Assembly: GCA_046563655.1 (NCBI GenBank)
Contig: CM102283.1
Coordinates: forward strand, 5,270,001 to 5,334,000
Origin: Yuukianura sp. NJ FZ-2021
Taxonomy: Eukaryota
Direction: 5' to 3'
DNA length: 64,000 nucleotides
Shown: positions 13,276 to 49,618 of the stretch, in pieces
Layout of the letters: each line of letters begins with the position of its first letter
Position numbering within the stretch: position 1 is the stretch's first letter
Translations under genes and position numbers: made by a program
The notes under the pieces: generated by a model
What the model saw: only the letters and a program-made list of their open reading frames with translations
What the model was told of the DNA's origin: nothing
The model's database searches: none

Positions 13276-14704
13276 TTTGCGTAGTTATCGATGCGTTCAG
13301 TAATGGCTAGTCCTGTACAGAGTGCAAATTCAAATTCCATTGTGAAGAAAAAATCCTAGTTAAATTTATTTAAATAATTACATTGTTTTCAAAATAATAA
13401 TTATTAAAAACAATTAACTGCTAATTATAATTAAAATTATAACACAAATCGTGTTCTATACAATGACAACTTACTATCTAATCTCGACATTAGCTGCCCT
13501 TTGCCTCCTCCTTGGTTGGTTGCTGGAACTTAACTGCAGAAGGGCAAAACTCCGCTCTCAAAAAGAATTGAATAAGGATTCTTTAGACAGCCTTTATGAA
13601 AGTATTCCAACTTTGTACCGTCGGTATCATTCACACAACCATCTCTTTAACTAATCTTCATTTTTAAACCAAAGAGGAAGAGTCATGAGGTCAACGCGGT
13701 CTGGTCTTAGAATCTAGGGATTGAAATTCGCCCACTTTTGAAAAATTCGAATTCGAGTTTTTTAGAACTTTTGGTGGCACACAGCTTCGAACTGAAATTC
13801 GAAGTTTTAATTTCCAATTCAAAATTGGCTAACCTGTAAAAACAGTGAATAAAAAACTTGCAATTTTTGTTCATTTTTGTGATATGTGCAATGTTTAAAT
13901 TGATATGGTTCACAAGTCAAGTTAGTAATTAAAAAAAATCGTTGAAAAAATTGCTACGTCACGATTTAAACCCATTTCATTTAAGAAACAATAAGAATAT
14001 GAAAGCATCTTGCTGGTTCAGGAAAGTGTGTTTGTCAAATAAGAAAAACAGTTAAATAATTTGAACAAACTCCTAATTTTGACGTGAACGTTAGAAGTAA
14101 ATCGTTTACAATTTCTGTAAGTTTCGTGATTGTAACATATTTTTATTGTCCGAATGTGTTCAAAATATTCGTCTCGCCTCAACTTCCAAATTCGGATGCG
14201 GAGTTTTTTTTTTAAATTGAAATTCGAAAGGAAAAAAAAATAATTTCGATTCGATTCGACGGGTAGCATGTGATTGACTGACGAATACAACCTATGGTCT
14301 TGTTCTAAGGATGGCTTGCTTTTTTTTGTAATTCTGACACTTGTAAGCTTAGCTTCAGTCAAAAAGGAATCCGATCAAACCAGTTTGAAAAGCAAACGTG
14401 TCATCAGTCTCATAATTCCTTAGAACGGAAACCCATTGAAAATTATCAGATTTTTTTAAACGGAAGAAATTTTTAAATTCCAAAAAGTGTCTAAAACTCC
14501 ATATTTTTTTCGGTAAAACTTAAATATACTTACACTATTTTACAAAATTAGCAATTTGTGTACAGAGATTCAGAACATCAAAGAGTATGACGTCATCTCA
14601 TCACGCAGTTGTCACACATAAATTGTTGCAAAAAATGTCCCGTTTATACTAATTTGTTCTAAATTTGTTTACAGGTCATATCCTAAAGAATTCAGAACAG
14701 CACA

Positions 14705-15721
14705 ATGGCTTTATTTACACCGAAAGATGAGCTCGAAACGCTGATACTCAGTCCTTATTTGGTTCAAGGGATTTACGTCATTGCAAAACTCGGAATTCCG
14801 GATCATCTCGAATCCGGACCGAAGTCAACCTTGGAGCTGGCTGCACTTACGGGTACACACGAGCCGAGTCTGTACCAAATGCTACGCACGTTGACCGTTA
14901 TTGGGATCCTCCGAGAGTCGTCACCAAAATTCTTTGAGCTGACTCCACTTTCTGAGCATTTACGTTCCAACCATCCCCGCTCCGTCCGGAATTTTGCACT
15001 GTATCTACAAATGGACGGTTGCCAAGGCTTTCGAGCTCAGCTTGAAAATGCCGTTCGAACGGGCACTTCTGCCTCCGAGCTTGCTCATGGACAACACTAC
15101 TACAAATATCTCGAAACCCACGCTGAAGAGCGGGATACATTCTACAAGCACTTGAATTCTTTGAGCTCAGGCGACACCCGGATATTCTTAGACACTTTGG
15201 ATGTTACCGGTGTTAAAACGCTCGTGGACATTGGCGGTGGGACGGGCGTTCTGACCGAAGCTATTCTCACTGAACATCCATCAATCCAAAGAGGCATAAT
15301 TTTTGAGCTGGGCGCTGCTCTTGCCGCACGAAAGTCCATTCATGGGAAGTCGGCGGCGCTTGGGCGAATGGAATGGGTGGATGGAGATTTGTTCAAGGAC
15401 GAAGTCCCCTCTGGGGGCGACTTATATTTGATTCGATACGTTCTTCACGTCTTCCAAGATGACAAGGCCCTGCTCATTCTAAAAAATATCCGAAGAGCAA
15501 TGAGCGGCAATAGCCGATTGGTCATCGTGGAGCAAGTTTTGGTGTCCAACGATCCGTCGAGTTGGGGAAGCTATTTGGACGCCTTCATGCTGGGAATCCA
15601 TGGGAAAGAAAGAACCAAAGAAGAGTTTACTCAACTGCTGGGCCAAGCAGGGTTTCCCGAGCCTACTTTCATTCCTGTGCCCGGATGTACTTGCTACTTA
15701 ATTGAGTCTAGGTTGGGCTAG
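14705..15721 (+). CDS. Class II small-molecule O-methyltransferase (Methyltransf_2 plus dimerisation domain), intronless CDS, microbial type
   Basis: 338-aa ORF with N-terminal dimerisation HTH (LGIPDHLESGPKSTLELAALTGTHEPSLYQMLRTL), motif I LVDIGGGTG, GDLF, RYVLHVFQDD and GKERTKEEF. A splice-acceptor-like ttgtttacag ends at 14674 in the 5' flank. Confidence 0.9.
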   Translation: MALFTPKDELETLILSPYLVQGIYVIAKLGIPDHLESGPKSTLELAALTGTHEPSLYQMLRTLTVIGILRESSPKFFELTPLSEHLRSNHPRSVRNFALYLQMDGCQGFRAQLENAVRTGTSASELAHGQHYYKYLETHAEERDTFYKHLNSLSSGDTRIFLDTLDVTGVKTLVDIGGGTGVLTEAILTEHPSIQRGIIFELGAALAARKSIHGKSAALGRMEWVDGDLFKDEVPSGGDLYLIRYVLHVFQDDKALLILKNIRRAMSGNSRLVIVEQVLVSNDPSSWGSYLDAFMLGIHGKERTKEEFTQLLGQAGFPEPTFIPVPGCTCYLIESRLG

Positions 15722-22386: not shown

Positions 22387-24329
22387 TCAGATAAATTCAA
22401 ATGAGGCGTAATCGTTTGCGGTGGCTTCCTCAAGTGCTTGAACATACCCAGGCGTCCCACCAATGTAACTCAGTGGTTCAACCTTTTTACCCGGAATGTT
22501 GGCACCTTGATACCAAGAATCTGCATACTGGAAAACCGTTTCGTACCAAATCTGGTGCACGAGCTGCGTCCATTTTTCACTTTCGTCTTGTTTTGCAAGA
22601 ACGCGTTGCTTTCCGTTATACCGCATCCACACAAGGAGTTGGATTAACCACTCGCTTTCAAGTTTTGCCGTTAGAGCAACGGTGGACAAGGCAGCTGTAC
22701 CGTGCGGCCCATTTAGAAACCACATATTCGGAAACTCAGGCGTTGCCATGCCAACGAGCGTTTGGATACCGTTGCTCCAGTGATCTTTGAGCTTCTTACC
22801 CGAACCGTTTTCAATGTCAATGTCAAAAATCCCTCCGGTCACAGCATCGAATCCGGTTGCCATGACAATAATATCAGCAGCAATTTCATCTCCGTTCTCG
22901 AGTCGGACTCCCTGCTGGGTAATTGCTGCTATCGGATTTTTCTTGACGTTCACAATGTCCACGTTTGGCTGATTATAGACTTCAAAGTAGTTGGTTTCTA
23001 GTGAAGGCCGCTTAGCTCCGAATGGGTGCGGTGGTTTTTCTGGGGCTAAAATGCTTTGTTTAATGGGATCGTTAATGCGTGGTAGTGTTTTGCGGCGCCA
23101 ATAGTTGTAGACGTGATTATTTGCGTCTATGTTAAACAAAATGTCATGAAAGTTTTCACGCCAAAATGCAAATCCACCCTCGTTGTACAATTTTTCAAAA
23201 AGTTCTTCCCTTTGCTCTGGCGTAGCATCGCAACAGTTTAGTCCATTCGGGTCTAGGCGCAAAGACGTAGTCGATTTTGCCGACTTGTCTCGGATTTGCG
23301 CAGACTCAACGGCATCTGGAAAGTGCCAATCGTCGCCTCGGAGTTTTTGACGCATCGGAATAGCCAAGTTGGGCGTTCGCTGTAAAACGGTTAAGTGGCC
23401 CACAACCGGCGCCACCTCTTGTATGACTTGAACACCACTTGGTCCGGTTCCAATGACTATTACGCGTTTACCCGTGAAATCAACTTGGCGTTCCTTTTGC
23501 CAGTCCCCTGTGTGATAAATTTCTCCACAAAACTTGTCCATACCCGGAAAGTTCGGTATCTTGAGCTTGGAAGTGATGCCGGTACAGAGGATCAAATGTC
23601 GGCATCGGGTGACTTTTGAATCGGAAGTGGTGACGACCCAATGGTTGAAAGTCGAGTTAAAAACAGCCCCCGTCACACGCGTTTCGAACTGAATGTCTCG
23701 ACTGAAATTGTGTCGCTCGTCCACATGGGCAAAGTAGGCTTGAAGTTCGGCCCAACCAGGAAACCGTTCGGTCCAGTGAAAGTCATATCCGATTTCGGGT
23801 TGATGGAATTGGTAGAGCATGTAGTTAGAATCGACTCGCGCCCCTGGATAGCAGTTCCAGTGCCAAACCCCACCGACCGCCGAACCAGCTTCAAACACTT
23901 TGAAATTGAAACCGAATTTCCGCAAATCGTACAGCATACTGAGTCCTGCAATGAATTTGCAAAATTAGTTGTGATGTAGTACTTTATGAATCTATGGTTT
24001 TATCTATTTAGTCTACAGCATTTTGGTTATGAAAGAAAGCGCAAAAAAAAATTTTGCGGAGATGAGCAAATCGAATTCCTCATTTCTCCTTTCCTTGGTA
24101 TCAAGCAAAACGGCGAGGAGGCAGGAGTACAGGCAGGAGTACAGGCAGGGGAGTTTTATTTATTTTTAGAAAAATAATTTCAACAATGGCAGAACCGAAA
24201 GAATGGTTTAAATGAGGCTTGAAGTAGATGTAACTCTAAAGTTTAATTTTCCTTACCAGCAAAACCCGCTCCGACGACCACTGCGTCTAGAAGGTCGATC
24301 TCCCCATTCATGTGCGTTGAAGGTGCCAT
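22387..24329 (-). CDS. Type I Baeyer-Villiger monooxygenase (copy 1); exons 24257-24329 and 22387-23945
   Basis: Exon 1 encodes MAPSTHMNGEIDLLDAVVVGAGFA(G). BVMO motifs GGVWHWNCYPGARVD and FCGEIYHTGDW are present, with second Rossmann motif GTGPSG, catalytic Arg in AKRPSLE, and ATGFD. Confidence 0.93.
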
Positions 24330-28800: not shown

Positions 28801-29340
28801 GTTTCTTGGTGCTTCAAGCGTAGTTGACAAGGAGAGACTGACTGAGTGTCCTTTCTTCTATAGTGGACACATTTTGTGCTTTCCTGCCATACTTTAAAAC
28901 CGAAGCCAAGCCAAATGAAATGAAGATTTAAAAAAAATTGTGGACACTTAGCGGGGATTCACCATTCTGGAGAAATGTAAAATATAATCATCCAGACGAG
29001 AACCTGTTTCAGATTCCGGTTTGGAGTTTCAGAATTCAAATGGAAAGAATCCTGTCCATGTCGCCTGGATTTTGTGTCACATGAATCAAGTATTTAAATA
29101 CTTTACCGTCCCATCGTAGATAAAGCTACAATTCACTCGGAAATTTGAAATTTATCATGAGCGTTTCCAATTGCAACCGTGCATACTAGTGCATTGCCTA
29201 CGAATGTCGCGAAAATTTTTAGGTATCGGAGTTGAAGCTGAACAGAATTGTGTGTGGAAAGCTATACCTACCAAAAATCCCAATTTTTGCTAATGTTTGT
29301 ACTTAATGTTTGATAATGATTGAAATGAGAGACGGCTAAA

Positions 29341-29583
29341 CAAGGTTTCTATAGCAACCGCTGCTTCATAAGGTTAAGCAATAAGTCCTGTTTACGAAAA
29401 AATTCGCTCCAAACAATTTTTTCGCCCAATTTTCGCCCAATCCCATTTGATTGCATATAAATCATTACCATAGGAGGGCACGGCGAACCAAGTTTTGCTA
29501 CTTTTTAAACAAAATTTAAAACGCTTGAGTTATTGCCTAACCTGTTGGAGAAAAAACTATTTTTTTTTTGTTTACAAACCTTG
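29341..29583. mobile_element. CAAGG-ended MITE with perfect 8-bp TSD
   Basis: Ends caaggttt...aaaccttg, with TSD cggctaaa at 29333-29340 and 29584-29591. Confidence 0.85.
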
Positions 29584-30390
29584 CGGCTAAATGCAAGAAC
29601 ACAAAAATTTCAAAATTGCATTTTAAAAGAGAGAATTTGGTGTTGAGTGCGATTGAAATCTTCAAAACATTTTGAGTCCAAAAGTGCTATGATAGTGTAG
29701 GTATGTATGCAAGTATGTTTCTGTAAATTCTGCGAATAGAATAGAGCTGTCGGGAAGACTTCACCAGAATTAATCCACTTTCGCAGTAGTACACTTTTGT
29801 AACAACCCGGTATATTTTTCTGTCTCCGTTTTTCCTCAATTGTTCTTTTGATTTTCATTCTGGGTTATTCAAATGTTTTGAGCTTCTTTTTACAAAGAAA
29901 TAAAATGTTCGACTGTTCTTTTAAGAATTTTTTATTAATTTTTGTTGAATTTCATTTTTCAGCACTTGGCCTTTCAAATTTTCTAAGAATTTTTACGAAA
30001 CCAAATGCGAGGAAAGTTTTAGCCGGACGTGATAAGTGAGAGCCGAGTTACAGTTATTTCCGCCTGCGCATGTGCAGGTACAATGTGATTCCTTCGTCGT
30101 TAGTCGCCCTTAGGTAATAAATAGATGCACCTCGCGAAAAAAAGCAGTCGCACACTGTTACAAAAATTTTGAAAAAAGAACTATGTTTTTTGTTTTCAAG
30201 TTTTACTTTAATTTAATCTCATTTTTTTGAAAAAAAAAAATTAAACGTATTTTACTTGGGCTTGCTCTCTTGGCAAATATTTTTTGAAAGATTTGACCTC
30301 CTGTCATTTGACAGTTATTTAAAGAAATTATATATAACTGTAGACTCTTTTTCGGCTTGTAGGGAGACCTGCGGTAAGCTGTACGAGAAC

Positions 30391-30792
30391 TCAGGGTCGT
30401 TGATTGACCAAGTTGACCCTGATTCTTCGGCCATCTAACTCTTGTTCGTTGAGAGCTTGAATGGCATTGTTCGCCTCTTCGATCGTTTCGAACTGTCAAG
30501 CAGTATAAATATTTGAGTTACTGCATACTATAACTTAAGTAGCCCATAATTACTAATTAGTTATCAATAGATTAAGTCAAATACTCACCGTCACAAATCC
30601 GAACCCGCGACTTCTTCCAGTCTCACGGTCTTTCATGACAATGCTATCCAATATTTGCCCATACGGCTCAAAAGCTTGTCGGAGTGTGTCGTCAGTGGTA
30701 GTCCAGGCCAAATTTCCCACGTACACTTTTGTACCAGCAGAAGCAAAGGAGAATGTCAAAAGACTAATCAGGACGACTTGCAAAAGCGCCAT
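30391..30792 (-). CDS. 101-aa single-RRM protein with N-terminal signal peptide; exons 30589-30792 and 30391-30492
   Basis: [104 protein letters not shown]2 (VYVGNL) and RNP1 (RGFGFVTF) are intact, with a canonical gtgagt...cag intron. Confidence 0.9.
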
Positions 30793-30857
30793 TTTCGGAT
30801 TTAGTTTTCGGAAGTCAAGTCCTCCACAAGACTGAACGCAAGCGACGTAGTCGTGTC

Positions 30858-30865
30858 TTTTTATA
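30858..30865 (-). promoter_or_regulatory. Putative TATA box of the RRM gene
   Basis: TATAAAAA on the minus strand, ~66 bp upstream of the ATG. Confidence 0.5.
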
Positions 30866-31666
30866 TGTCAGTCAATCTATCCTGTATCAGTCAAGCAACA
30901 ATTATTTTCCAATTTTTTCTAATGGGATTTCAATATCATGGTAAATATGGAAACTGTTTCTAACCTTGACCTTAACCTCAACCTGAACCTATCAACCTTG
31001 AAAGCGCCTTTTTAAGTTACTTACGCCTGAAGATGTCTTCGAAATCAGACTGTACAGAAATGGCCGCCACAAGCTCCAATGAATATTACTCAAAATCCGA
31101 GGCAAAGGGATGTAATTAAGATATTTCCTTAGCGTGAGAGCTTTTGTCCCGAAGTGATCAACGACTAACCTCAGACGAACAAAAATCTTTGGCTTAAAAA
31201 ATTGGAACCTTCAAAAGTTATTTCTATCAACTTTTAAACCTTTTCCAAGGTTTTTTGATTGTTTACTAATTCAAATGCCCTTGGGGGCTAACGAAGGCTA
31301 ACGATTGTAAAAAGCTTTTGTACGTTTAATGGCCAGTTCGACCATTGCAGGTTAAAGTTAAACGGAGTTTAGTGCAAACTAGTTCCACCTTTAAACTCAA
31401 TTAACTTAATTATGCGTCAATTAATCTGGACATACAAGGTATCAAAATTCTAAGAGCGACACGGACACAACCTAATACTCATAGTGTTAAAATTTAAAAT
31501 GAATGGAAAAGCAAACTTTTCAATGAGAAATTTCATTTAATTTAATGATTTACAGCTAAAGGGCTAAAGTTTTCACTTAGTTTTCTCTTAAAAATGCACA
31601 TGAGTTTGATTTGAAGCAATTTGGAACTCTTTACTGTTGTAATTTTGGACTCGACAACTCAAATTC

Positions 31667-32351
31667 TTACATAATTTTTGCAAATGAAAGAGAAAAGAAA
31701 AAGTTAGTGACAAGAACCAGGGAAGCCTTGAAACTGGATCGTGACTCTTTAAGAGAAGGAGCCGAGTTGCAGCCATCTTTGTCTGCGCATGTGCAGAGAC
31801 TGATTCCTGTATGGTCATTTGCCCGCACAGTGCTCACGCATTTGCCCACCTTACTTTCAGCCATGTCGCATTTCCTTATGACTTGTTCTCCAGGGTGATC
31901 CAACTGTGCTTTCTCTTTTACGCAAGCGTTCAAGCTAGACTCACATTCTGTGAGATGTTGTTTCAATGGAGTGTACGGATCTTTGCAATCGTGAGCAGTT
32001 GATTGGCTCTGCCCGCACACATAACAAAAGATTCCTACAATTTCAAAAACAAAACTTTTTTTAAATCCTCCTACTTTTAACGCTGTACAAGATTAGATAC
32101 AAATTAAATTAAAACATCAAAGAGAATCATTTTTTTTTTCGAAAAAAAAATAGCTGGAATTTTGCAGTTTTGGTGTAAGCAAGGCCAAACTTAAAAGCCT
32201 ACTTAGGAATTCCGTTCTAATTGAAGTATGATAAAACGAAATCATATTTTCAAAATTTTAAAAAATTTGTTATTTGAAATTAGTACTTACCTAGAACTGT
32301 TGGTGAAGTACAAACCGCCATAAACACTACTATTAAACTCGTCCAAGTCAT
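31667..32351 (-). CDS. Quiver/sleepless-like (Ly6/three-finger) secreted, probably GPI-anchored Cys-rich protein; exons 32291-32351 and 31667-32034
   Basis: Signal peptide MTWTSLIVVFMAVCTSPTVLG, then IFCYVC...C.DP... with 10 Cys ending in CTCADKDGCN, followed by a Ser-rich spacer and hydrophobic C-terminus. Confidence 0.8.
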
Positions 32352-33254
32352 TTCGTGCTGTAACATCCACACTATCAAGCACACTTTGAATTTCTTTGAC
32401 TACAAAATTTTGATTTTCCGCTTTTGTTGAACAAATCCGACTCCATTCAAAAAAAAAAGTTGTTTTATGCGATTCAATAAAAAAAATAAGCCTCTTAGTG
32501 GTGCATGACAACGGCTCCAAATTGTAACATCAGAATCGAATTTGAAACCTTAAGAATAGCTACAACCATTTGAAAATTCTAATACAAAACGGCATGATTT
32601 GAAAAAAGGAAAAACAAATATAAACCTTAACAAATAAAATGGAATGCTTGATTCAAAAGGGCACTGGTTAGTTGACCGCTTGCAGAGCAAAAATCGGAGG
32701 GAAGAGAAAGTTTTTCACACTTTCTTCAAAAATTGTCGAACTCCGTTGAAAAGGAGAATGCTCTCGTGTTGAAAACTCTTTCACTTCCTAGCCAATTTTT
32801 TTTGAGCTGTTCGCCTGTTTTCTTTTCATTTGCATCCATTAGAGGTTCTGGAAGGTGGATTTCACCCTACTGGACCCCATATTTCGCAAATTCAATATCT
32901 GCCTGCCAATTCACAGTTATTCACAATGTTGCTGGATGACTAAACTTCCAGTGGTTTAATTGAAAAAAAAAACACTGCTAATTGATAGGAATACGGGACT
33001 AAGTTTCATCCTAACCTAGTAATATCGAAATTATGCAGTTTTGACACGCCTTCCAGAGCCTTGTAAAACTATGCTGTCCATTTCAGAACTAACAAAGTTA
33101 CACGCATGCATGAAAAGCAGAACGCAAATGCGTAAAAATTTGAATTTCTGTAATGGCAGTCGCAAAAGATATGGAGGGTTACGTTTGGTTTTGGTATCAT
33201 CAAATCAGTGAAGTTGAGCATCCGTTTCCCGTAGAAGTTCGACTAATTCTCCAA

Positions 33255-35274: not shown

Positions 35275-35704
35275 AAAATTCCTGTCAGAATCACGATCGA
35301 TTTAAGCGTGCGCGAGGTATTGACTTAGCTGAAACGTCTTTTAATTAAAAAAAAACCTTTCGTGTCAATTTTGCTTTGTATTTTGAATCATAAGTTTCGG
35401 TGATTTTTAGAACATCTGAACATCTCAGACAGCCAGCATCCGACTAGCGTTGAAACGGTATCCGACATTCAAACATTGAATAGGCGTAATCCTACACTCT
35501 TCATCAAGCATAGTCTGTCTAATGGCCGCAAAGGATCAAATTGATCATTTAAAATTGGTTTTTGAACAGCAGTTCACTGAAATTCCAATTTTTTAATTCC
35601 AAAAATAGGTCAAAAATACGATTTTTGATTTTGTCGCTTTGTTCCCATTTGTAATTTTGATGAAGAAGAATATGATTTGATTAACACTTTTTAATTTTTG
35701 TAGC

Positions 35705-36997
35705 ATGGCTTCACCTCTGACGCCCAAGGCAGATGTTGTGCCAAAACACATCCAAGCAACATGGACGGACTTGTCAAATCTCACGCGCTGCCAACTAACT
35801 ACCCGGGAACTCTACAACTCCTACTTCAGCAAAAATGGATTTAGCCAACCCTATTTCATCTTTAGTTTACCGTACATGAATGCACCGCCTTACGAAAGAG
35901 TCACAGAGGAGGTCAGATTTAACATGGACAAGGATACTCCACTTCCACTTCCATGGATGGAAGGAACATCCATTGCATTCGGAAAATTCGAATACAAGGG
36001 CCAACCTTGGGGTTGCTGCCCAAGGAACTTCCTGTCTGCGCAAGAGCAGAAACTCAAATCTGCTGGTATCAACATGCGAATTGGGTTTGAACTGGAATTC
36101 TACTTGCTCAATATGGATGGGACTCCGGTGGATGCAACTGGATATGGAGAACCAATGGCCTTCACAGGGAAGTCATGGACAGTCATTTCAAGCGCGGTGG
36201 ATTTCATGCAGAAATTGGGTATTCCGGTATGGAAGTACCACGGCGAAGCAGGTCCCGGGCAATTCGAAATTTCTATTGGGCCGTTCGAAGGATCGATGCT
36301 GAAAGCCGCCGATTCTCTAGTTCTAGCACGTCAAGCTATTTTTCAAGCTGCAGCGGCCGCTGGGCTCAACGCAACTTTTGCGCCTAGACCAATCCAAGGC
36401 CCTGGCTCATCCGTACACACTACGGTGTCGCTTTGGAGCCCAAACGACGTGAATTTGTTTGAAGTGGATCCGAAGAGAGCCAAGAGCTTCTTGGCCGGAA
36501 TTTTCAATCATCTTCCCAGCTCCATTGTCATTATGTGTGCAAACGGGAATTCTTATGACCGACTTGACCCCTTGGGCTTCTCTGGAGGATTTCACTGCAT
36601 TGGGACAGAAAATAGGAAAGCAGCCATACGATGCTTCAATGACGAAGGTGTGCTGACACGATTTGAAGTCAGGAATCCTGATGGCACTTCAAATCCGCAC
36701 TTGGTCTTGGGGACACTCATTGGGACTGGAATGGACGGCATTGAAAACGGAACGCCACTTTGTCCATTTGTGGAAACAGATCCGCTGTTGCTGCCAGAGC
36801 ATTCTCGCCCGCCAAGACTTCCGATGACATTGGCTAAAGCTATTTCCACTTTTGCTGAATCCAGTTTTAATCGGGAGCTGTACGGAGATGAGCTATTCAA
36901 TCTCCTTTTGCTGGTTCGTAGAGGAGAGGAAGCTTATTGGAGCTCAGCTAATGTTTCAATGAAGGAAAAAATGAACATTGTATTGGAAAAGTACTAA
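35705..36997 (+). CDS. Glutamine-synthetase-like gamma-glutamyl ligase (GSI-like; FluG/PuuA-type catalytic domain), intronless CDS
   Basis: 430-aa ORF with GFELEFYL, HGEAGPGQFEI, ATFAPRP, GSSVHTTVSL, NSYDRL, GTENRKAAIR and RFEVRNPDGTSNPHL. An acceptor-like ttttgtag sits immediately before c-ATG. Confidence 0.88.
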   Translation: MASPLTPKADVVPKHIQATWTDLSNLTRCQLTTRELYNSYFSKNGFSQPYFIFSLPYMNAPPYERVTEEVRFNMDKDTPLPLPWMEGTSIAFGKFEYKGQPWGCCPRNFLSAQEQKLKSAGINMRIGFELEFYLLNMDGTPVDATGYGEPMAFTGKSWTVISSAVDFMQKLGIPVWKYHGEAGPGQFEISIGPFEGSMLKAADSLVLARQAIFQAAAAAGLNATFAPRPIQGPGSSVHTTVSLWSPNDVNLFEVDPKRAKSFLAGIFNHLPSSIVIMCANGNSYDRLDPLGFSGGFHCIGTENRKAAIRCFNDEGVLTRFEVRNPDGTSNPHLVLGTLIGTGMDGIENGTPLCPFVETDPLLLPEHSRPPRLPMTLAKAISTFAESSFNRELYGDELFNLLLLVRRGEEAYWSSANVSMKEKMNIVLEKY

Positions 36998-40930: not shown

Positions 40931-43360
40931 ATGGAGCCTGAAGTTGTTGATGCTGTTGTGATCGGGGCTGGATTCTCAGGTAAAATCGCAAACTAATTTT
41001 CACAATTGTTTTATTCATAATTGTTGATTTGTATAATTTTTTCAACTTATAAAGACTTCTGCCAAATTTTGAAACATAAGAACGAGCCTTGAATAAGTTT
41101 TAGTTTCCATAATTCCATGTCATAAGTGCTTCAAACCCAAAAGCGTCTCCATCCATAACAGGCGCGTAACAAATAGTTTTGGCAGGCAAAACAGTTTTCA
41201 ATCATAAACAGGCTTTGTCAAAAAAAAATCCTAAAATCACAAAATCACAATTTTTAATCGTTTTTTTTGGCGCGGTTGTAGAAATATGAAGTAATTGAAA
41301 AATGAATACAACTTTCATAATTTTCATAAGAGAATCAAAGATGCCCTAAAAGGTTGTTTGGTGTTCAAAGCACTGATCACTGCAGTCCATTCAATAATCA
41401 CAGCGCTTTCGGCATTCAGCGCGGAAGAATTAAAAGCGGAGTAAAGGCTCAATTTCGTACGCAGTCAACTCGTAGGTTCAATTTCATAAGCAGTCAATTT
41501 GTATGCTCAATTTCGTCAGCAGCCAATTTGGTAAGCTCAATTTCGTAAGCACGTTTAATTCTTACGCATGCTCGCAATTCGTCAAAAAATAACGAATTCT
41601 ACTGCTTCACATTTTCTAAACATGTTGTGGTCGAGGAAATCCTGGGAGCAACTCGTTCGTTTTTTTTTCTCGTTATTTCGATCATTTTTCTTTTAACGAG
41701 AGGTGTCAAAATATGAACTCGATAAGTCATGGGCCAAATTGTTTTTGTGCCGTAATTCCATAAGACATAATTATTATCGATTATATGCTTTTTTGCAGGG
41801 TTGACCTGTCTGCACGAATTGCGGAAATATGGATTTAGTTGCAAAGTATTTGAAGCTGGAGGGTACTTGGGTGGTACTTGGTACTGGAACTGTTACCCCG
41901 GAGCACGAGTCGACATCGACTACATTTACTACCAGTTCCATCAGGCCGAAATAGGAAGAGATTTTCATTGGACAGAGCGGTTTCCCGGTTGGACCGAACT
42001 TCAAGACTATTTTTCATACATTGATCGACGACACAACTTTAGTCGTGATATTCAATTCAACACTCGTGTCACTGGAGCCAAGTATAACGCAATCAAAAAC
42101 GAATGGGAAGTCAAGACTTCGGACTCGAGAACCACGAGATGTCGCTACTTCATTCTTTGCGTTGGCGCTCAATCTAAACCTTATCGACCAAAATTTGTCG
42201 GGATTGAGTCTTTTCGTGGTCAGTCCTTTCATACGGCCGAGTTAACCGCTGCAAATCAACTTGAGTTCAAAGGCAAGCGGGTTGCTGTAATTGGAACTGG
42301 CGCCAGCGGGGTTCAAGTGATTCAAGAAATTGGCCCGTATGTCCAGCATCTCACTGTACTTCAACGGACTCCCAATACGGCTCTCCCGATGCAACAAAAA
42401 CGCCGAACCGATAAGTGGGAATTTCCAAATGCTGCCGACTATGACGAAATATTTTGTAACAATTTGAAGACGTTTGCTGGAGTGGGCTTGGACCCTGTCC
42501 GAAAGAACTGCATGGACGCCACTCCAGAGGAGCGGGAATCACTCTTTGAGAAGTTGTACGCTCAAGGTGGACTTGCGTTTCGGCTTGCCTCATTTCAAGA
42601 CATGCTTCTCAACCCCGAAGCCAATGAAGAAATTTACAAGTTTTGGATGAAAAAAACGCGGGCCCGGATTACCGATCCGGTGAAACAGAAAATGTTGGCT
42701 CCGGATACCGCTAAGTATCCATTTGCAACTAAAAGACCATGTTTGGAGCAGTCCTACTTTGAAGTTTTCAACCAATCGAATGTGGACTTGATTGATTTGA
42801 GCGAAAACCCAATTGAGAAGGTGAGCGAAAGCGGCTTGAAGTTAAAAATGGGTGACGAGATAAATGTCGACATAATTGTCATGGCAACGGGATTTGATTC
42901 TGTAACGGGGAGTCTGTTGGACATTGACGTTCAGAATGCATCAGGTGAAACTCTGAAGGAACACTGGAAGGACGGCATACGGACTTTGGTTGGCATGGCA
43001 ACCGATGCATTTCCAAACATGTTTATACTTTTCGGGCCACAAGCACCCGCTGATGTTGCCAATGGACCAACGACAGCTAAGATTCAAACTGATTGGCTAG
43101 TTGCTCTCCTTGTATGGATGCGCAGAACTGCTAAAACAAAAGTTGAACCCAAAGTAAGCGCATGCGAAAATTGGGCCAAGTGTGTGCATGCAACGTTTAA
43201 CAAAACGCTGTTTCCATTGGCCAAATCAAATTGGCAAGACGGCTCCAACATTCCAGGGAAGCGAAAGGAACCATTGAGCTTCGGGGGTGGAATTCCATCT
43301 TACATGCGAGCATTGGCAGAGGCTGCTGCGGATGACTACGCCAAATTCAACTTCGCTTAA
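40931..43360 (+). CDS. Type I Baeyer-Villiger monooxygenase (copy 2); exons 40931-40979 and 41799-43360
   Basis: Exon 1 encodes MEPEVVDAVVIGAGFS(G). Motifs GGTWYWNCYPGARVD, fingerprint FRGQSFHTAEL (Trp replaced), GTGASG, TKRPCLE and ATGFD. Colinear paralog of copy 1. Confidence 0.93.
41447..41583. repeat. Minisatellite (~29-bp unit, gctcaatttcgtaagcagtcaatttgta-like) in BVMO2 intron
   Basis: Four to five degenerate tandem copies are visible. Confidence 0.7.
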
Positions 43361-43610: not shown

Positions 43611-45158
43611 ACATTCAGTTTCATCTTGCCTAATTCAACATCATATTCTAATTATTAACGTAACGCCATAATAATTAACGTGTCCCAGAAGTTAATTTCT
43701 CATATTTCTATTTTATTTCTAACCAAAAAAAATTATCTTCTAATTCCAGTTCCAAAAAACGTTCCACCAGACTATTTTTTTAATTTTAAGGGCACAATTT
43801 CTAAGACCCTATGCCTAATATGTCGTAGTCGGTAAAAATTCTGAACATTGGTTATATGTAATGAAGTAAATGCCTATTACTACTTCAGCAAACCGTCTGG
43901 CGGCGTCTGAATCGATTCTTGGTTAAACTGATTTGAATTTCGATTGAAAAGTGTTTATGGCTTCACGTTTCCGAGCACAACTATGAATTTATTAACCTTG
44001 GTTTAACATAGACACTGATTTTTTTTTGGATGTGCTTGAGTTGCGGGAAAAAACGCTCCCCGAAAAATGGCAGCATGACATAAACGATGCAAAGATACGG
44101 ATACGAATAGTAATTTTGCAAAATTCATGCAAACCACAACTTAGAATGGCACAGGTTCACCTCCGAGTTGTTGAAAAGGTCAAAAGGTCAAATAACATCT
44201 AAAATAAAAAAAAATCCACTACCTGATTTGGCGTAAGATAAAGTTATGTTCTTCTTAAGAGAACAAGAATGGATTTTAAATTCTTGCATTATTTTTACAA
44301 CTCCAAGTGGTGACATGTTTCGGTTTTTGAAATGCTTTTCTTGTATGCACGATTTTTTTTTCGGCCACACCTATTCCGAATGCCTGGATTCAAGTTTTTC
44401 CACTACGAAGGAAGCATGTCATGAGGTTACTACATTAAATTGTTTAAACAAAATTTCCATTTTCAAAACTGGATTCAAATAAGTGGTTGTCTGATGCTAA
44501 TGAATATTCGATGAAGATATTAAATGCTTGAACAGGTTTTACGCAAACTGATTGAGCGACATTCCGGACTCAACACTTACGGAATAGTAATGCAATTGGT
44601 AACTATTGTCACTAACTCACAAGAAAAAGTCGAAGGTGAAAGCAAATAGCAAAATAACTGAAAATTGAATCATGGCGCCACAACCAAAGTAACCCATCTT
44701 TATTTGTAAATTAAATATGTCACTTTTTACTTCCTCAATCTAAATTTTAAGTAATACTACAAAAAACTACAAAGTGTGACAGAAAAGTACATGTCTTTTG
44801 CAGAAAAACTCCTTACAATATAGCAATATGTCGTGGAAATGTAAACTTGAATGGCGCCGAGGCTGCAGTGTGGAGACCATAATCTAAATTATTGCAATCA
44901 CCTTGTAATTCCATTCTAATTTATTAATCTTAATATCTGCAACAAAGTGCAACCTGCAACGAGGTTGACGACCTAACCAACTGCTGCGAAAATTAAGCGT
45001 TATATTGTATTTTTATAAATTGGAATTATGAAGCCACTAACCTATAAGTTTGATTGCATATTGCATGTGTTCACTTTACTTCTACTGTTCGCATGCGCCG
45101 TGACTTTATTGGTTCCAGACGTTGAACTACAGACATCAACCACAATAGGCAATTTGAA

Positions 45159-46906
45159 ATGACCGACCTAAATTGTGTCGTCCACTGCATAGTTTTGACA
45201 GTGCTGATCCAAATACTTCCGGTATGTTTTACGCATAAAATTGCCGAGGTCTGCCCAAGCGTAAAGGAAGACTTCAAAGGAGGCGTGGAAGCTCAACAGC
45301 TTAGCGAATGGGCCAAGGAAAACCCAAATCCGCCCATCTCCAGAACGTCTTCCGGAAATCCACAACAAAGTTTGACAGCGACACTCGGTATCGGTAAAAC
45401 CGGTCCACTGCTACTCCAAGACCTAAACTACATCAATCACATGACATCCTTTTGCCAGCGAAAAATTCCAGAACGAGTAGTTCATGCTAAAGGGGCGGGG
45501 GCCTTTGGCTACTTTGTCACGAAAAATCCAGCCATACGGAAGTACACTCGCGCCAAACTGTTCGCTAAAGTCGGTGCAAAAACGCCGGCGGTCGTTCGGT
45601 TTTCAACTCAAACGAGAGAGTCTGGTTCCGCTGATACGATAGCTGAAAATCGTGGATTTGCTATTAAGTTTTACACGGACGAAGGGAACTTTGACCTCAC
45701 CCTGCTCACTTTTCCAGCGTTTGACACGCGAGATCCAATCCTCTTTCCGACAATGAAGAGAGTTACACAGAGAAATCCAAAAACTAATTTAGGTTATGGT
45801 GCCGCTGACTTGGATTTGCTCTTCACCGAACCCGCCAGAATTTTGAACAAGTTAATGGGTGTGAGTGACCTTGCACGACCCAAAAATTATAGAGTAATGG
45901 GTGGGTTTAGTGTGAATACATTTAAACTTACCGGTGGAAGTAGTGGTGAAAAATACTTTGCTAGATTTCAATTGGTGTCCAAACTCCCTTATAAATGGCT
46001 AACTTACGAGAAATATAAAGTATTGGCTGGCAGTGACCCGGACTATATGACACGTGACCTGTATCGAGCTATTGCCCGTAGAAGATTTCCAAAATGGGAC
46101 TTGTACGCTCAAATTTTTAGAGCAGGCGATCTCAAAAATTTGAATTTTAATCCGTTCGATGCCACAAAATACTTACCGGTAAAACAGTTTCCACTTCTAC
46201 ACATCGGCACATTGGTTCTGAATCGAAATCCAGGTGAGACGTATAATATGTACCGTTTTGTACGTACCGTCAAACGTTATGTACGCTACCTAAGAACGTT
46301 TTAATAGCTTTCTGATTCTTTTTTCTCCTCGAAACTTCAGCTAACTTTTTCAATGACGTGGAGCAAGTGGCGTTCAACCCAGGGAAATTGGTGCCAGGTA
46401 TCGAAATTGGTCCAGACCGTATTTTCCAAGGACGAGTTCTTGCATACGAAGTGGCAGCGCGGTATCGTCTAGGATCAAATTTTGAACAACTGCCAGTAAA
46501 CAAACCAAAAGTTCCCGTTCACAATTACGAAAGAGATGGATTCATGAAATACTTTGGAAATGGTGACGGAGGACCCAACTACTTCCCGAATTCATACAAT
46601 GGCCCCTATGTTGACCACAGCTTCGACGACAGTCAAACTCAAATCGACGCTGGAATTATTCATCGCTGGAGTACCAGTGAAGATGACAACTACTCACAAG
46701 TAGGAAAATACTGGCGGGAGGAAATGGACGAAGGGAACCGCTGCAGAAGTGCACAGCATTTGGCCAGATTAGTCCTCGGATCTTCGAAACAAGTTCAGCA
46801 AAGGTTCATCCAGCTCTGGTCAAAGGGTGACCCTCAAATTGGACACATGATCCAAGGAGTGCTAGATCAAAAAGCAAGGAAACGAAAAAATCGGAAATAC
46901 CTTTAG
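45159..46906 (+). CDS. Secreted catalase-like haem protein; exons 45159-46233 and 46341-46906
   Basis: Signal-peptide-like N-terminus, IPERVVHAKGAGAFG (distal His), VRFST, RGFAIKFYTDEGNFDL, NPFDATK, LNRNP|ANFFNDVEQVAFNP, and proximal QGRVLAY...RYRLG (Tyr ligand). Confidence 0.9.
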
Positions 46907-47919
46907 AAATTCTGCGATGTACCTTCGCACTCGAACCCAAGTAGTGAGCGATCCCTCTCCAGCAAAACTGGAAGACTGGGCAACGCCATTAATCAATACG
47001 GTACGCAAATCACTGTCACTGTCTACATTTTCATACGGCAAAAACGAGTTTACAAAAACCATGGTATAGTTCCCCTACAAATCACTTATTGAAAAAAAAA
47101 ACTTAAAATATATGTTAATTTAAATGTGTAAGAAACTGTATATTTTACCCAGTTTATACCACGTTTTTTTTTGTCGGTCTTTTGTGTCGATGTCTTTTCT
47201 TTTTTTTCGATGTATTGGCATGGACCCTTTAGCATTTCGTGAGTTGAACGATTGCAACACTCGTAAATTAGAGTATGATGAGGGCATTCAAGTAGCTTTC
47301 CCAACTCGATGGATCATCATTGGACATGGACACCAAAAGTTGCTCCACGATGACCATGGTTGTCAAAAATATGTTCTAAAAACCCTCGGAATATCGACAA
47401 AAAAAATAAGATTTTTTAAAATCGCCCAAATATTTACTTATTTAACATTATGGGTATGGGCAAATAATACATTCTGAAGATTTTTCATTAAAATCTTCAT
47501 TGCCAGGGGGCAAATGTGGTTAGGTTAATAAACAAAATATTTAGCAACAAAAACCGCTCAAAAATTTTTGATTATCATTATCATTATAAGGTTGGAAATT
47601 AAATATGTTTGACATCCCTGACGATGATGAATCGGCTACAGCCACTCATTACTCTTCGAATATTTTTTAGAATGAGGAAGCGTTTTTGTCATCATGGAAG
47701 ACATGAAGGACTTTAAAGATTAGATTGTAGTTCCTATCTTCTTGAAGGTCATCCTCTGCTCAACCTCGTAAACAGCAGTTAACGTAACGGGATGATAGTA
47801 AGATTTTGTGGCTCCAAAGTTTGTCATACAGTTTCCCATCAACTTTTTTTATAAAGAAAGTCACATTTTCAAAATAAAAATATCTTACTCTTCTGTTTTG
47901 TTTCCGAATTGTTTTGAAA

Positions 47920-49618
47920 ATGCTTCAAAACTACTACTCTTCAACTAAAACACCGGGAGACATTTCCTCCGCCTTTTTAACTGCAAAGGACGTTACATGG
48001 GCACCAAAGTTTAAAACTCTGAAAGACGAAATCAATCCAAAGGATGTTGAAGGTTCGTGGAAGAGGCTTCTGGAAGCATTTGAATTCGAAACTGAACAAA
48101 TTCAAAAACGGGGACCATCCATCGTGCCCCAAATCGATTTCAAGGAAATTCAAAACAACGGAGGGAGAATTCCCGCCGAAAAATTAACAGAGATCAAGAA
48201 GCGCGGAGTTGTTGTGATTCGGAATGTCATCGACAGAGAGACTGTTTTGAATTATAAAAAAGATGTTCAAGAGTATATCGCCAGAAACAAAGACAAAATT
48301 GTTGGATTTCCAAGGAGTAAGAATATTTCGAAAAATATTTATTTGGGAATGGCTTTTGAAAATATTTTTTTCTTCTTATTTTGTAGAAGAGAATCCGCAA
48401 GTGTGGGAAGTATACTGGTCTAAGGCTCAGTTTGAAGCAAGGTCACATGGAAACTTTAACATGGCGGCTGAAGCTATGAATGACCTTTGGCATGCGCCGG
48501 ATGGCACATCGATTGACTTCAAAACCAACGTCATGTACTGCGACAGGCTCAGAATTCGGCAACCGGGTGACAAGAGTTTTGCTTTGGGAGAACATGTCGA
48601 CGGTGGATCAGTTGAACGTTGGTTTAGAATCAAAAATCAAAAATTATATTTCCAAATTTCCGTTTTCATTTTATTTTATGCTTAAAAAGGATGGGAAGAC
48701 CCGGAGTATCGCAAGTGCTACGAGCATATCCTGAATGGCAACTGGGAGTCACATGATGCGTACGATGCGACGCATAGGGTCAACGCAGTACAAGATTTGT
48801 ACAACTGTGCAGGTACTAAATTGTCCAAACTTTTTTTTAATAAAAGTTTTGAAATTGAATTTTGAAGTTTTGTAACTTAGGTGGCTGCACAATGTTCAGA
48901 ACATTTCAAGGGTGGTTGAGTATGTCTGACGTGTCCCCTGGTGGGGGTACGCTCCGCGTCTGTCCACTTGTCAACCTATCGACTGCGTACATAATTCTTC
49001 GGCCTTTCGTATCCGACCTAAGAGATACACCGTAAGCATAATTGCGAAGAGTTTTGCAAAATAGAAAGAAAATTCTTTTAATTTGAAATTCTAGAAATAT
49101 GGCTGGAGCCATTCCAGGAGCACAACAGGATATTCCTGCTGATTTGTTTCCGCACATTGTGAAGGCAATGATTTCAGTTCCAACTGTTGCGCCTGGTGAC
49201 TGCGTCTTCTGGCACTGCGATATGGTCCATGCTGTGGAGGCATGTTGCGGCGGTGTCACAGACAGCAGCGTTTTCTACATTCCTACAGCGCCACTCTGTG
49301 CAAAAAACGTACAATACTTGCGGCGACAAAGATTTGCCTTCGAGAACGGAACGTAATTTATAAAGCACACATTATTTAAAAAAACTAGCAGTTATTTCGG
49401 AGATTTAATTAAGAATTTTTTCTTAACTTGATTTGAGCAGTTCACCACCAGATTTTCCTTTAAACAACTGTGAAGTCACTTTAACTGACAGAGCTCACCC
49501 GGGTGATCTGAGTGACCTTGGTAAACTGACGATGGGATTTAAACCATTTCCGCTGGATGAGTCGTTAAGCACAAGCGCACGATTGGCTGCTGAAGAAGCA
49601 AATGAAATTCTTTTCTAA
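47920..49618 (+). CDS. DUF1479 / Gig2 / YbiU family protein (Fe(II)/2OG oxygenase-like fold), 6 exons
   Basis: Exons ~47920-48316, 48387/48390-48617, 48690-48812, 48881-49031, 49095-49352 and 49441-49618. Motifs IKKRGVVVIRNV, YWSKAQFEARSH, YCDRLRIRQPGD, LGEHVDGGSVERWED, MFRTFQGW, PGDCVFWHCDMVHAVE and SPPDF. Confidence 0.88.

What the first reader, a model, noticed from the sequence alone, without database searches (positions are those of the whole stretch)
30391..30792. Secreted RRM: fungal-type glycine-rich-RBP domain fused to a signal peptide
Seen: the 101-aa product is a 19-aa classical signal peptide ending in A-S-A, directly followed by one intact RRM. It has no Gly-rich tail, and the gene has a TATA box and one clean intron. 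Established: RRM proteins are almost always nuclear or cytosolic. The sequence [20 protein letters not shown]...[25 protein letters not shown]...[15 protein letters not shown] closely follows fungal (basidiomycete-type) glycine-rich RNA-binding proteins as I recall them. Inference: a fungal gene was captured and re-routed to the secretory pathway. It could bind extracellular RNA (gut, haemolymph, saliva), act in cross-kingdom RNA traffic or immunity, or act as an antifungal mimic effector.
Basis: partly seen in the sequence, partly recalled or inferred. Interest (0 to 1): 0.8.

Follow-up and report, generated by a model that had tools for sequence, protein, structure and literature searches.

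The report
Secreted fungal-type RNA-binding domain gene
An arthropod-like genome carries an intact small gene whose product is a fungal-type RNA-binding domain placed directly behind an export signal, which suggests that a normally intracellular fungal protein was borrowed and turned into an RNA-binding protein that works outside cells.

Summary
Confirmed as sequence: a two-exon gene (minus strand, 30792-30391, 96-nt GT-AG intron) encodes a 19-residue signal-peptide-like leader plus one complete RRM, without a glycine tail. The leader is not chance (only 1 of 883 open ATG leaders in the window passes) and cannot be bypassed: a TATA box and initiator 30 nt apart precede the only upstream ATG. 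The RRM is 69-81% identical to mushroom-fungus glycine-rich RNA-binding proteins, keeps 35 of 36 fungal-conserved columns, and scores 80-84 bits against them versus 52 against CIRBP. Public DNA contigs tie it to an animal-type Ly6/Quiver neighbour. Weak points: the 82-column tree is unresolved (AU tests reject neither animal nor bacterial placement, and CIRBP was not in it), a lone fungal-type copy in a soil bacterium leaves a relay open, and no orthologue, RNA run, SignalP or assay was available. Best reading: a fungal-derived, secreted single-stranded-RNA binder acting in gut or body fluid (0.5). The scan had not found this gene before, but noted other signal-peptide gains on borrowed genes in this genome. 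Closest precedent: the disputed fungal effector RiSP749.

The parts
30859..30865 (-). TATA-like box
   Evidence: only 1 of 69 TATA-like matches in the window with an initiator 28-33 nt downstream
30831..30835 (-). arthropod-type initiator (TCAGT, recalled consensus); predicted start of transcription near 30833, 5' UTR about 41 nt with no ATG
   Evidence: inferred from consensus, no RNA data
30736..30792 (-). 19-codon predicted cleavable signal peptide (residues 1-19, A-S-A at -3..-1); sits where fungal homologues have their start Met
   Evidence: homologue N-termini
30589..30735 (-). exon 1 part of the RRM (residues 20-68): RNP2 (V23-L28, Y24) and most of RNP1 (R62, F64, F66)
   Evidence: PF00076 profile 1-45, 56.2 bits; fungal GRPs, 80-84 bits
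30493..30588 (-). 96-nt phase-0 GT-AG intron, 28% GC, between T68 and F69 of RNP1; not at the intron sites seen in fungal homologues
   Evidence: fungal introns
30391..30492 (-). exon 2 part of the RRM (residues 69-101) and stop codon; no Gly-rich tail, no KDEL-type or GPI-type end
   Evidence: profile 46-70, 22.6 bits
30212..30217 (-). candidate polyadenylation signal (ATTAAA), 173 nt after the stop
   Evidence: consensus match only
31667..32366 (-). context, not part of the gene: upstream animal-type Quiver/Ly6 gene used for the linkage test
   Evidence: (PF17064, 37 bits); overlapping contigs

Best explanation
A fungal glycine-rich RNA-binding protein (GRP) gene entered the genome of a soil arthropod, probably as a spliced copy, lost its glycine tail, and gained a host-type promoter, an intron and a signal peptide fused exactly at the old start. 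The only upstream AUG makes the leader, which sends the chain into the ER; cleavage after Ala19 releases a 9.3-kDa, cysteine-free, acidic single RRM that is secreted. Its RNA-binding face is intact, so it most likely works as a stoichiometric binder of single-stranded RNA in an extracellular space (gut lumen of a fungus feeder, haemolymph or a secretion), coating, unfolding or sequestering dietary, fungal or viral RNA. Shown: gene structure, leader features, fungal-type RRM with conserved RNA-binding residues, place in animal DNA. Inferred: direction and route of transfer, expression, cleavage and secretion, RNA binding, site and purpose.
For: Gene model and complementary Pfam halves. Leader unique among 883 open ATG leaders; promoter pair unique among 69 TATA matches; no other usable AUG. 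Summed Hessa insertion score about +1.0 kcal/mol over 19 residues (scale recalled), marginal for a membrane anchor. Identity 69-81% to 18 Agaricomycete GRPs, 54-66% to 4 bacterial, 51-58% to 6 plant/algal, 41-46% to 2 named animal hnRNP-type RRMs; path lengths 0.46-0.74 to the nearest member of each fungal group versus 1.21 (bacteria), 1.55 (plants/algae), 2.56 (animals). Exon 1 scores 80-84 bits on the best single-RRM fungal proteins versus 63.9 on plant GRP 4c7q and 52 on CIRBP. 35 of 36 columns conserved in at least 90% of 36 fungal RRMs are kept; median identity to Agaricomycetes 0.72 versus 0.76 among them, while synonymous sites differ at 0.74-0.96 from three fungal-type loci, which points to long purifying selection. 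Contig depth over the gene resembles that over the neighbour, multi-copy repeats flank it, and contigs from two studies overlap from the leader to the Quiver exon. One listed variant in the leader is synonymous. Precedents for the role: plant GRP7 is found outside cells bound to RNA (PMC9048913, passages); bee MRJP-3 is a secreted RNA protector (PMC8001424, passages); fungal Crp1/Crp2 melt RNA structure (as cited in PMC6658566, passage).
Against: No orthologue or paralogue with a signal peptide was found, so conservation of the leader across species is untested and the order of events is unknown: the RRM may have been conserved while still intracellular or while still in the donor lineage. The tree is unresolved and AU tests are negative. 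Without the long PABP row the query pairs with a fungal-type RRM of the soil bacterium Ktedonosporobacter rubrisoli (85/68, unstarred, nested among fungal rows). A lone RRM without its Gly tail usually binds RNA weakly (general knowledge). The one conserved column that changed (Ala to Val at 97) lies just after the last strand, near the RNA-binding face (position recalled from other RRMs). Nothing here shows RNA binding, tissue or purpose.
Confidence: 0.5

Rival explanations
1. Secreted, but not for RNA: the fungal-looking RRM is a decoy or mimic that soaks up fungal or bacterial factors aimed at RNA-binding proteins, or is taken up by fungi and interferes with their GRP, or binds ssDNA or another polyanion.
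For: Same secretion evidence. Near-complete conservation of the fungal surface would also suit a mimic. A fungal-derived secreted whitefly protein gained a new protein target after transfer (PMC10583550, passages).
Against: No cationic or cell-entry feature: net charge -2, no Cys. The RNP aromatics and Arg are all kept, which RNA binding explains most simply.
Confidence: 0.18
2. The leader is an uncleaved N-out/C-in anchor, or targeting is leaky, so the RRM works in the cytosol or on the cytosolic ER face as an RNA chaperone (for example in cold stress), like its fungal relatives.
For: The leader has no basic n-region and Lys22 follows it. An intracellular role explains RRM conservation with no new biology; fungal Crp proteins melt RNA structure under stress (PMC6658566, passage). 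The full-length SP+RRM effector RiSP749 was not secreted in a yeast trap (PMC11085264, section 3.1).
Against: The hydrophobic stretch is short and polar-interrupted (insertion score about +1.0 over 19 residues) and ends in a canonical A-x-A site. No downstream AUG and no strong alternative splice pair can make a leaderless RRM.
Confidence: 0.14
3. A young or idle acquisition: the gene is intact but barely expressed or not under selection in the host, and the RRM conservation was inherited from an unsampled donor.
For: No orthologue found; the two run labels differ by only 2 letters over the 662-nt piece covering exon 1 and the promoter, so they give no cross-species test. One sample shows a second form with a different 3' end.
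Against: A correctly spaced TATA-initiator pair, a good start context, an AT-rich intron at a site not seen in the fungal homologues examined and a strong leader are unlikely to assemble without selection. GC3 0.51 is close to neighbours (0.44-0.51).
Confidence: 0.1
4. Different origin: relay through a soil bacterium or an unsampled protist, or an old opisthokont GRP kept only in this lineage, rather than direct fungal transfer.
For: Query pairs with the tail-less, intron-less K. rubrisoli RRM in 848 of 1000 bootstrap trees of one data set and shares E42-P43 with it. AU tests do not reject non-fungal placement. This RRM evolves slowly (76% to a Mortierellomycotina protein).
Against: The bacterial copy is more distant (66% versus 81%), has 2 of 5 fungal-diagnostic residues against the query's 5, and is alone in its lineage: 78.5 bits versus at most 56 in the other 150 class genomes searched and 1 of 61 family genomes at E 1e-22. 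The pair is unstarred, nests among fungal rows and did not appear in the first tree. No named animal or protist single-RRM protein is among the best listed hits.
Confidence: 0.1
5. Fungal contamination or a chimeric assembly.
For: High identity to fungal proteins; no single listed contig spans both the gene and its neighbour.
Against: Synonymous sites saturated against fungal loci; no fungal protein with this architecture apart from one apparently mis-modelled record; depth like the neighbours, host repeats on both sides, overlapping contigs from two studies reaching the Quiver exon.
Confidence: 0.02

Closest known systems
Fungal glycine-rich RNA-binding proteins (Heterobasidion P0300, Stereum P0317, Trametes P0325, Malassezia P0341; Metarhizium Crp1/Crp2 as cited in PMC6658566)
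   Same: Same RRM subfamily: 69-81% identity to 18 Agaricomycete members, 5 of 5 diagnostic residues, same domain boundaries and charge.
   Different: They start at Met right before the RRM and 26 of 36 carry a Gly-rich tail; this one has a signal peptide instead of the Met, no tail, and a different intron site.
Arabidopsis GRP7 in the apoplast (PMC9048913, passages)
   Same: GRP-type RRM protein found outside cells bound to RNA and affecting extracellular RNA content; plant GRP structure 4c7q is the best single-RRM PDB match (63.9 bits).
   Different: GRP7 keeps its Gly tail and intracellular roles; the paper does not mention a signal peptide (0 occurrences), and it is recalled to have none. 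Here export would be by the classical route and the gene is foreign to its host.
RiSP749 of Rhizophagus irregularis (PMC11085264, section 3.1 and passages)
   Same: Predicted signal peptide plus RRM in a eukaryote; homologues without SP exist.
   Different: snRNP-35K-like RRM with NLSs, larger, native to the fungus; its SP is disputed (SignalP 4.1 yes, 5.0 no) and the full-length fusion was not secreted in yeast.
Honeybee MRJP-3 (PMC8001424, review passages)
   Same: Secreted insect protein that binds and protects RNA outside cells.
   Different: Not an RRM and not a transferred gene (yellow/MRJP family, recalled); RNA-binding domain arose within Apis per the review.
Whitefly BtFTSP1 (PMC10583550, passages)
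   Same: Fungus-derived gene encoding a secreted protein in an arthropod.
   Different: The fungal homologue was already secreted with a signal peptide; here the donor family is intracellular and the signal is new.
Animal CIRBP / RBM3
   Same: Single N-terminal RRM of the same broad group.
   Different: Much lower score (52 bits for CIRBP; RBM3 not among the 60 listed, lowest 45 bits), RGG tail and no signal peptide (recalled).

Membership tests
RRM domain (Pfam PF00076) | Score above the curated cut-off over the whole profile | tested here: met
   exon 1 covers profile 1-45 (56.2 bits), exon 2 covers 46-70 (22.6 bits), cut-off 20.7
RRM domain (Pfam PF00076) | RNP2 and RNP1 with aromatic and basic RNA-contact residues | tested here: met
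   Y24, R62, F64, F66 present; 35 of 36 fungal-conserved columns kept
RRM domain (Pfam PF00076) | Binds single-stranded RNA | not testable with these tools
   needs a binding assay
Glycine-rich RNA-binding proteins (GRP7 / fungal GRP type) | GRP-type N-terminal RRM | tested here: met
Glycine-rich RNA-binding proteins (GRP7 / fungal GRP type) | Glycine-rich C-terminal tail | tested here: not met
   stop right after the RRM, no Gly-rich remnant in three frames; 26 of 36 fungal comparators have one
Glycine-rich RNA-binding proteins (GRP7 / fungal GRP type) | Leaderless, intracellular start directly before the RRM | tested here: not met
   19-residue leader, no alternative AUG; 102 of 103 fetched loci have a start codon within 7 codons of the RRM
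Animal CIRBP / RBM3 | Closer to CIRBP/RBM3 than to non-animal RRMs | tested here: not met
   52 bits versus 80-84 bits for fungal proteins, exon 1 only
Animal CIRBP / RBM3 | Nests among them in a tree | tested here: inconclusive
   no CIRBP/RBM3 sequence was on hand for the tree; AU test against animal hnRNP-type rows p 0.42
Classically secreted protein | N-terminal hydrophobic core and (-3,-1) cleavage site at the first AUG | tested here: met
   (own rule, not SignalP)
Classically secreted protein | No further membrane segment, GPI signal or ER-retention end | tested here: met
   best hydropathy windows of 8, 12 and 19 residues all fall in the leader; polar C-terminus read directly
Classically secreted protein | Cleaved and found outside cells | not testable with these tools
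   needs proteomics or expression
Horizontally acquired gene | Best matches non-animal by a wide margin | tested here: met
   no named animal among 240 listed hits (many rows are unnamed); about 30 bits over CIRBP
Horizontally acquired gene | Physically linked to native genes | tested here: met
   overlapping contigs of two studies (30659-31590 and 30920-31720); no single listed piece spans both genes
Horizontally acquired gene | Phylogeny nests it in the donor group with support | tested here: inconclusive
   among fungal rows, no starred clade, AU tests negative
Horizontally acquired gene | Expressed in the host | not testable with these tools
   no RNA holder listed, which is no evidence either way

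The most novel reading that the evidence does not exclude
A fungus-eating soil arthropod has turned its food's own RNA chaperone into a dedicated, classically secreted RNA carrier or sponge that captures fungal or mycoviral RNA in the gut or body fluid, either neutralising cross-kingdom small RNAs or delivering RNA for uptake; it would be an animal RRM protein built for the extracellular space, and one case of a wider habit in this genome of giving borrowed intracellular proteins a signal peptide.
Probability: 0.22. Interest if true: 0.88.

Novelty: new variant of a known kind. Interest (0 to 1): 0.62.

Why it matters
RRMs are the commonest eukaryotic RNA-binding fold and are nearly always nuclear or cytosolic; the known extracellular cases leave cells without a signal peptide or use other folds. 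How RNA survives and moves in arthropod gut and haemolymph is an open question that limits RNAi-based pest control, and few carriers are known (PMC8001424). A 9-kDa, cysteine-free secreted RRM is easy to make and test, and would give a direct handle on RNA exchange between fungi and the animals that graze on them. It is also a clean example of a transferred gene changing compartment. Gene transfer from fungi to springtails is itself well known (PMC5490193), so the transfer alone is ordinary; the re-routing is the interesting part.

Tried and rejected
No whole genome is held, so paralogues outside the window could not be sought; none within it. No RNA holder listed. The all-representatives search was swamped by multi-RRM proteins (best 150 of 23,639) and says nothing about orthologues. 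A search focused on leader plus half RRM returned 1 of 1 candidates, a leaderless fungal-type protein. The ESM Atlas gave only generic RRM clusters under 0.9. Of 390 fetched proteins aligned, 37 had a hydrophobic stretch in a lead of 12 or more residues; by inspection only Rhizoctonia P0349 has it directly before a fungal GRP RRM, and its broken RNP2 start and tail that reads like an out-of-frame Gly tail suggest a gene-model error (inference). One of 103 loci had a hydrophobic Met-led upstream stretch (L085, 49% identity), not followed up. A viral carrier: 23 viral loci, best 53% over the mature domain, so no support. Target-site duplications, inverted ends or a poly(A) remnant of retro-insertion: none evident. 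A leaderless splice form: no strong donor-acceptor pair. Trees could not name the donor; the PABP row was left out of the second tree because of its 3.4 branch. No structure or complex was predicted: the spliced protein cannot be handed to those tools, exon 1 alone is half a domain, and the fold is not in doubt. Literature: no report of this gene or of an animal signal-peptide RRM in 10 searches of an open-access library only. The published springtail transfer lists could not be checked: F. candida supplements gave 0 hits but two of three files are cut; for O. cincta one file was not searchable and the other is cut; the metazoan HGT compendium PMC13342648 had no readable supplement (search listing only).

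Full report
Observation. Splicing by coordinates gives one in-frame model on the minus strand: exon 1 CDS 30792-30589, a 96-nt phase-0 GT-AG intron 30588-30493 with 28% GC, and exon 2 CDS 30492-30391, 101 residues in all. Four other donor-acceptor pairs were open, but three shift the frame and one deletes two residues of RNP1; the chosen donor is the best consensus match (8 of 9). The two exons match Pfam RRM_1 positions 1-45 and 46-70, each above the cut-off, so the intron splits one complete domain. The stop follows the last strand by a few residues and no frame behind it holds a glycine-rich remnant.

The leader is more than chance and cannot be skipped. Residues 1-19 carry no charge, have a best 12-residue hydropathy mean of 2.6 and end in A-S-A. 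Of 2158 ATGs in the window, 883 are open for 19 codons, 9 of these are hydrophobic and uncharged, and only this one also fits the (-3,-1) rule; among 54,453 open random leaders 72 pass the loose rule and 15 are as strong. The rule is mine, set at this length after seeing the leader, so it shows rarity and does not replace SignalP. A TATA-like box at 30865 is followed 30 nt later by TCAGT, the recalled arthropod initiator; this is the only such pair among 69 TATA-like matches in the window. No other ATG lies in the 135 nt upstream and the next Met is residue 53, inside the RRM. A summed insertion score of about +1.0 kcal/mol over 19 residues (scale recalled) is marginal for a membrane anchor. 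The predicted mature chain is 82 residues, 9.3 kDa, pI 5.0, without Cys or N-glycosylation site, and it begins in the same register as fungal homologues begin after their Met.

The RRM is of the fungal GRP type. With exon 1 as query, 1276 of 1300 candidates of 37-119 residues and 729 of 778 longer candidates passed; among the 120 best of each, named rows are fungi, a few bacteria, plant chloroplast RNPs and one haptophyte, with no named animal, though many rows are unnamed. Best single-RRM fungal scores are 80-84 bits; in the PDB the plant GRP 4c7q scores 63.9 and CIRBP 52, the same order that a real fungal GRP gives (89 and 75 over the whole domain). Over the mature domain identity is 69-81% to 18 Agaricomycetes, 61-79% to 8 other basidiomycetes, 58-74% to 6 ascomycetes, 56-76% to 4 early-diverging fungi, 54-66% to 4 bacteria, 51-58% to 6 plants and algae and 41-46% to 2 named animal hnRNP-type RRMs (these 52 rows were picked by hand from about 400 fetched proteins). 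All 5 columns diagnostic for fungi are matched, against 0-2 in each of 16 non-fungal rows. 35 of 36 columns conserved in 90% of 36 fungal RRMs are kept, the exception being Ala to Val at 97; the query is as close to Agaricomycetes (median 0.72) as they are to each other (0.76), while synonymous sites differ at 0.74-0.96 from three fungal-type loci. That is long purifying selection, but it cannot be split into time in the donor and time in the host.

Results against a simple fungal story. The tree has 82 columns and no starred clade holds the query. AU tests do not reject grouping it with five animal or animal-like hnRNP rows (p 0.42) or with eight bacterial and land-plant rows (p 0.32), and CIRBP/RBM3 were not available as rows. 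In the first tree the query's sister was purely fungal in only 225 of 1000 bootstrap trees, most others giving a mixed group. With the long PABP row left out, it pairs with a tail-less RRM of Ktedonosporobacter rubrisoli in 848 of 1000 (85/68, unstarred, nested among fungal rows). That bacterial gene is itself an outlier: 78.5 bits against at most 56 in the other 150 class genomes searched and 1 of 61 family genomes at E 1e-22 (the tallies include the unpublished genome G057, on which no claim rests singly). It shares E42-P43 with the query but is only 66% identical, with 23 of 52 identical codons, like fungal loci (10-24 of 48-58). It reads best as a separate capture from fungi, but a relay is not excluded. 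The donor lineage cannot be named.

Intron history. Fungal locus L036 has an intron within RNP2 and an acceptor just after it, and none at the query's site; several fungal records begin at, or retain an insertion at, two sites (after V-G and before I-V-M). The query lacks these and has its own intron in RNP1. This fits entry as a spliced copy followed by intron gain, but rests on one genomic locus and on gene-model artefacts.

It lies in animal DNA. The window mixes intron-bearing P450, ABC-transporter, PRMT and Quiver/Ly6 genes with intron-poor microbial-looking genes. The Quiver gene ends 875 nt upstream and its Atlas look-alikes are animal (0.93-0.94). Five DNA runs of two studies hold the stretch. 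In the four laid, depth over the gene is like that over the Quiver exon (for example 44-66 versus 45-56 in X1, 2.9-3.8 versus 4.7-5.8 in X4), multi-copy repeats lie on both sides, and a piece of X4 (30659-31590, 2 other letters) overlaps a piece of X1 (30920-31720) that enters the Quiver exon; no single listed piece spans both genes, and X1-X3 may be the source sample. A listed variant in leader codon 18 is synonymous; the variant table was cut, so no polymorphism test was possible. One sample shows a second form joined at 30331/30402; read as a clean deletion it would swap the last three residues for five and leave the RRM whole. That the host is a springtail comes from earlier unchecked notes on this genome and from the gene mix; I did not test it.

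No relative with the same build was found. Of 390 fetched proteins only a Rhizoctonia record has a hydrophobic leader directly before such an RRM, and it looks mis-modelled; 102 of 103 metagenome and viral loci start within 7 codons of the RRM. The searches favour close word matches and list only the best rows, and small two-exon genes are often not annotated, so this is not absence. The scan's earlier notes hold nothing like this sequence but describe a secreted ADF-H protein and a dehalogenase with a gained signal exon in the same genome, unchecked by me.

Mechanism. Most likely the leader is cleaved and a single acidic RRM is secreted, where it binds short single-stranded RNA with its intact sheet. 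Loss of the Gly tail would remove self-assembly and leave a small soluble binder. In a soil animal that grazes fungi (F. candida ecology and 32.8% of its transfers from fungi: PMC5490193, passages) the obvious ligands are dietary, fungal or viral RNAs in the gut or haemolymph. Precedents: GRP7 outside plant cells bound to RNA (PMC9048913, passages), MRJP-3 protecting RNA in bee jelly (PMC8001424, passages), RNA melting by Metarhizium Crp1/Crp2 (cited in PMC6658566, passage). I give this 0.5. Rivals: secreted decoy or non-RNA ligand 0.18; ER-tethered or cytosolic chaperone 0.14; young or idle gene 0.1; non-fungal route 0.1 (this concerns origin and can hold together with the others); contamination 0.02.

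Novelty. It is not a member of the GRP family in the strict sense (no Gly tail, added leader), though it carries their RRM. A signal peptide on an RRM has one precedent in what I could read, RiSP749, whose signal is disputed and whose full-length fusion was not secreted in yeast (PMC11085264, section 3.1 and passages); a review of mycorrhizal effectors lists other RNA-binding candidates but no RRM (PMC10252856, passages). The whitefly protein BtFTSP1 came from fungi already secreted (PMC10583550, passages). Ten library searches showed no animal case, and the springtail transfer tables could not be fully seen. Verdict: a real, unusual gene; new variant of a known kind; interest 0.62, held down by the lack of orthologues, expression and function.

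Noticed in passing
L104:2001-2279 (+), protein P0016: Ktedonosporobacter rubrisoli carries a fungal-type, tail-less RRM (66% to the query) that has no close match in 150 class or 60 family genomes searched; probably a fungus-to-bacterium transfer.
   Followed up: partly
window 45126-46906 (+): Catalase gene (PF00199) whose first Met starts a hydrophobic leader (12-residue hydropathy 2.9): a candidate secreted catalase, possibly another signal-peptide gain.
   Followed up: no
window 14687-15721, 22387-23964, 35681-36997, 41771-43360, 47878-48685: Cluster of intron-poor, microbial-looking genes among animal genes: O-methyltransferase, two Baeyer-Villiger/FMO-like monooxygenases, glutamine-synthetase-like, Gig2-like. 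Origin not tested.
   Followed up: no
window 29195-30104 and 31286-31451: Repeat-rich inserts on both sides of the gene are absent from some public contigs: polymorphic mobile-element insertions, one 300 nt downstream of the stop and one about 420 nt upstream of the TATA box.
   Followed up: no
window 30331-30402: Contigs of one sample join across the end of the coding sequence: a second allele or paralogue with a different C-terminus and 3' UTR.
   Followed up: partly
window 30040-30077 and 31759-31796: 38-nt direct repeat (82%) between the Quiver exon and non-coding DNA downstream of the RRM gene, inside the polymorphic insert; possibly a captured exon fragment.
   Followed up: no
window 31667-32366 (-): Quiver/sleepless-type Ly6 gene with its own signal-peptide exon and a hydrophobic, GPI-like end; its leader does not resemble the RRM gene's leader by eye.
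   Followed up: partly
P0349 (Rhizoctonia solani): A fungal GRP gene model with a signal-like N-terminus that seems read from intron or flank DNA; shows that pyrimidine-rich sequence before this RRM can mimic a leader. The query's leader DNA is 68% pyrimidine, so an origin from such sequence is possible but untested.
   Followed up: partly
window 59408-60786 (-): Broken non-LTR retrotransposon reverse transcriptase (PF00078) inside the PRMT-like gene region.
   Followed up: no
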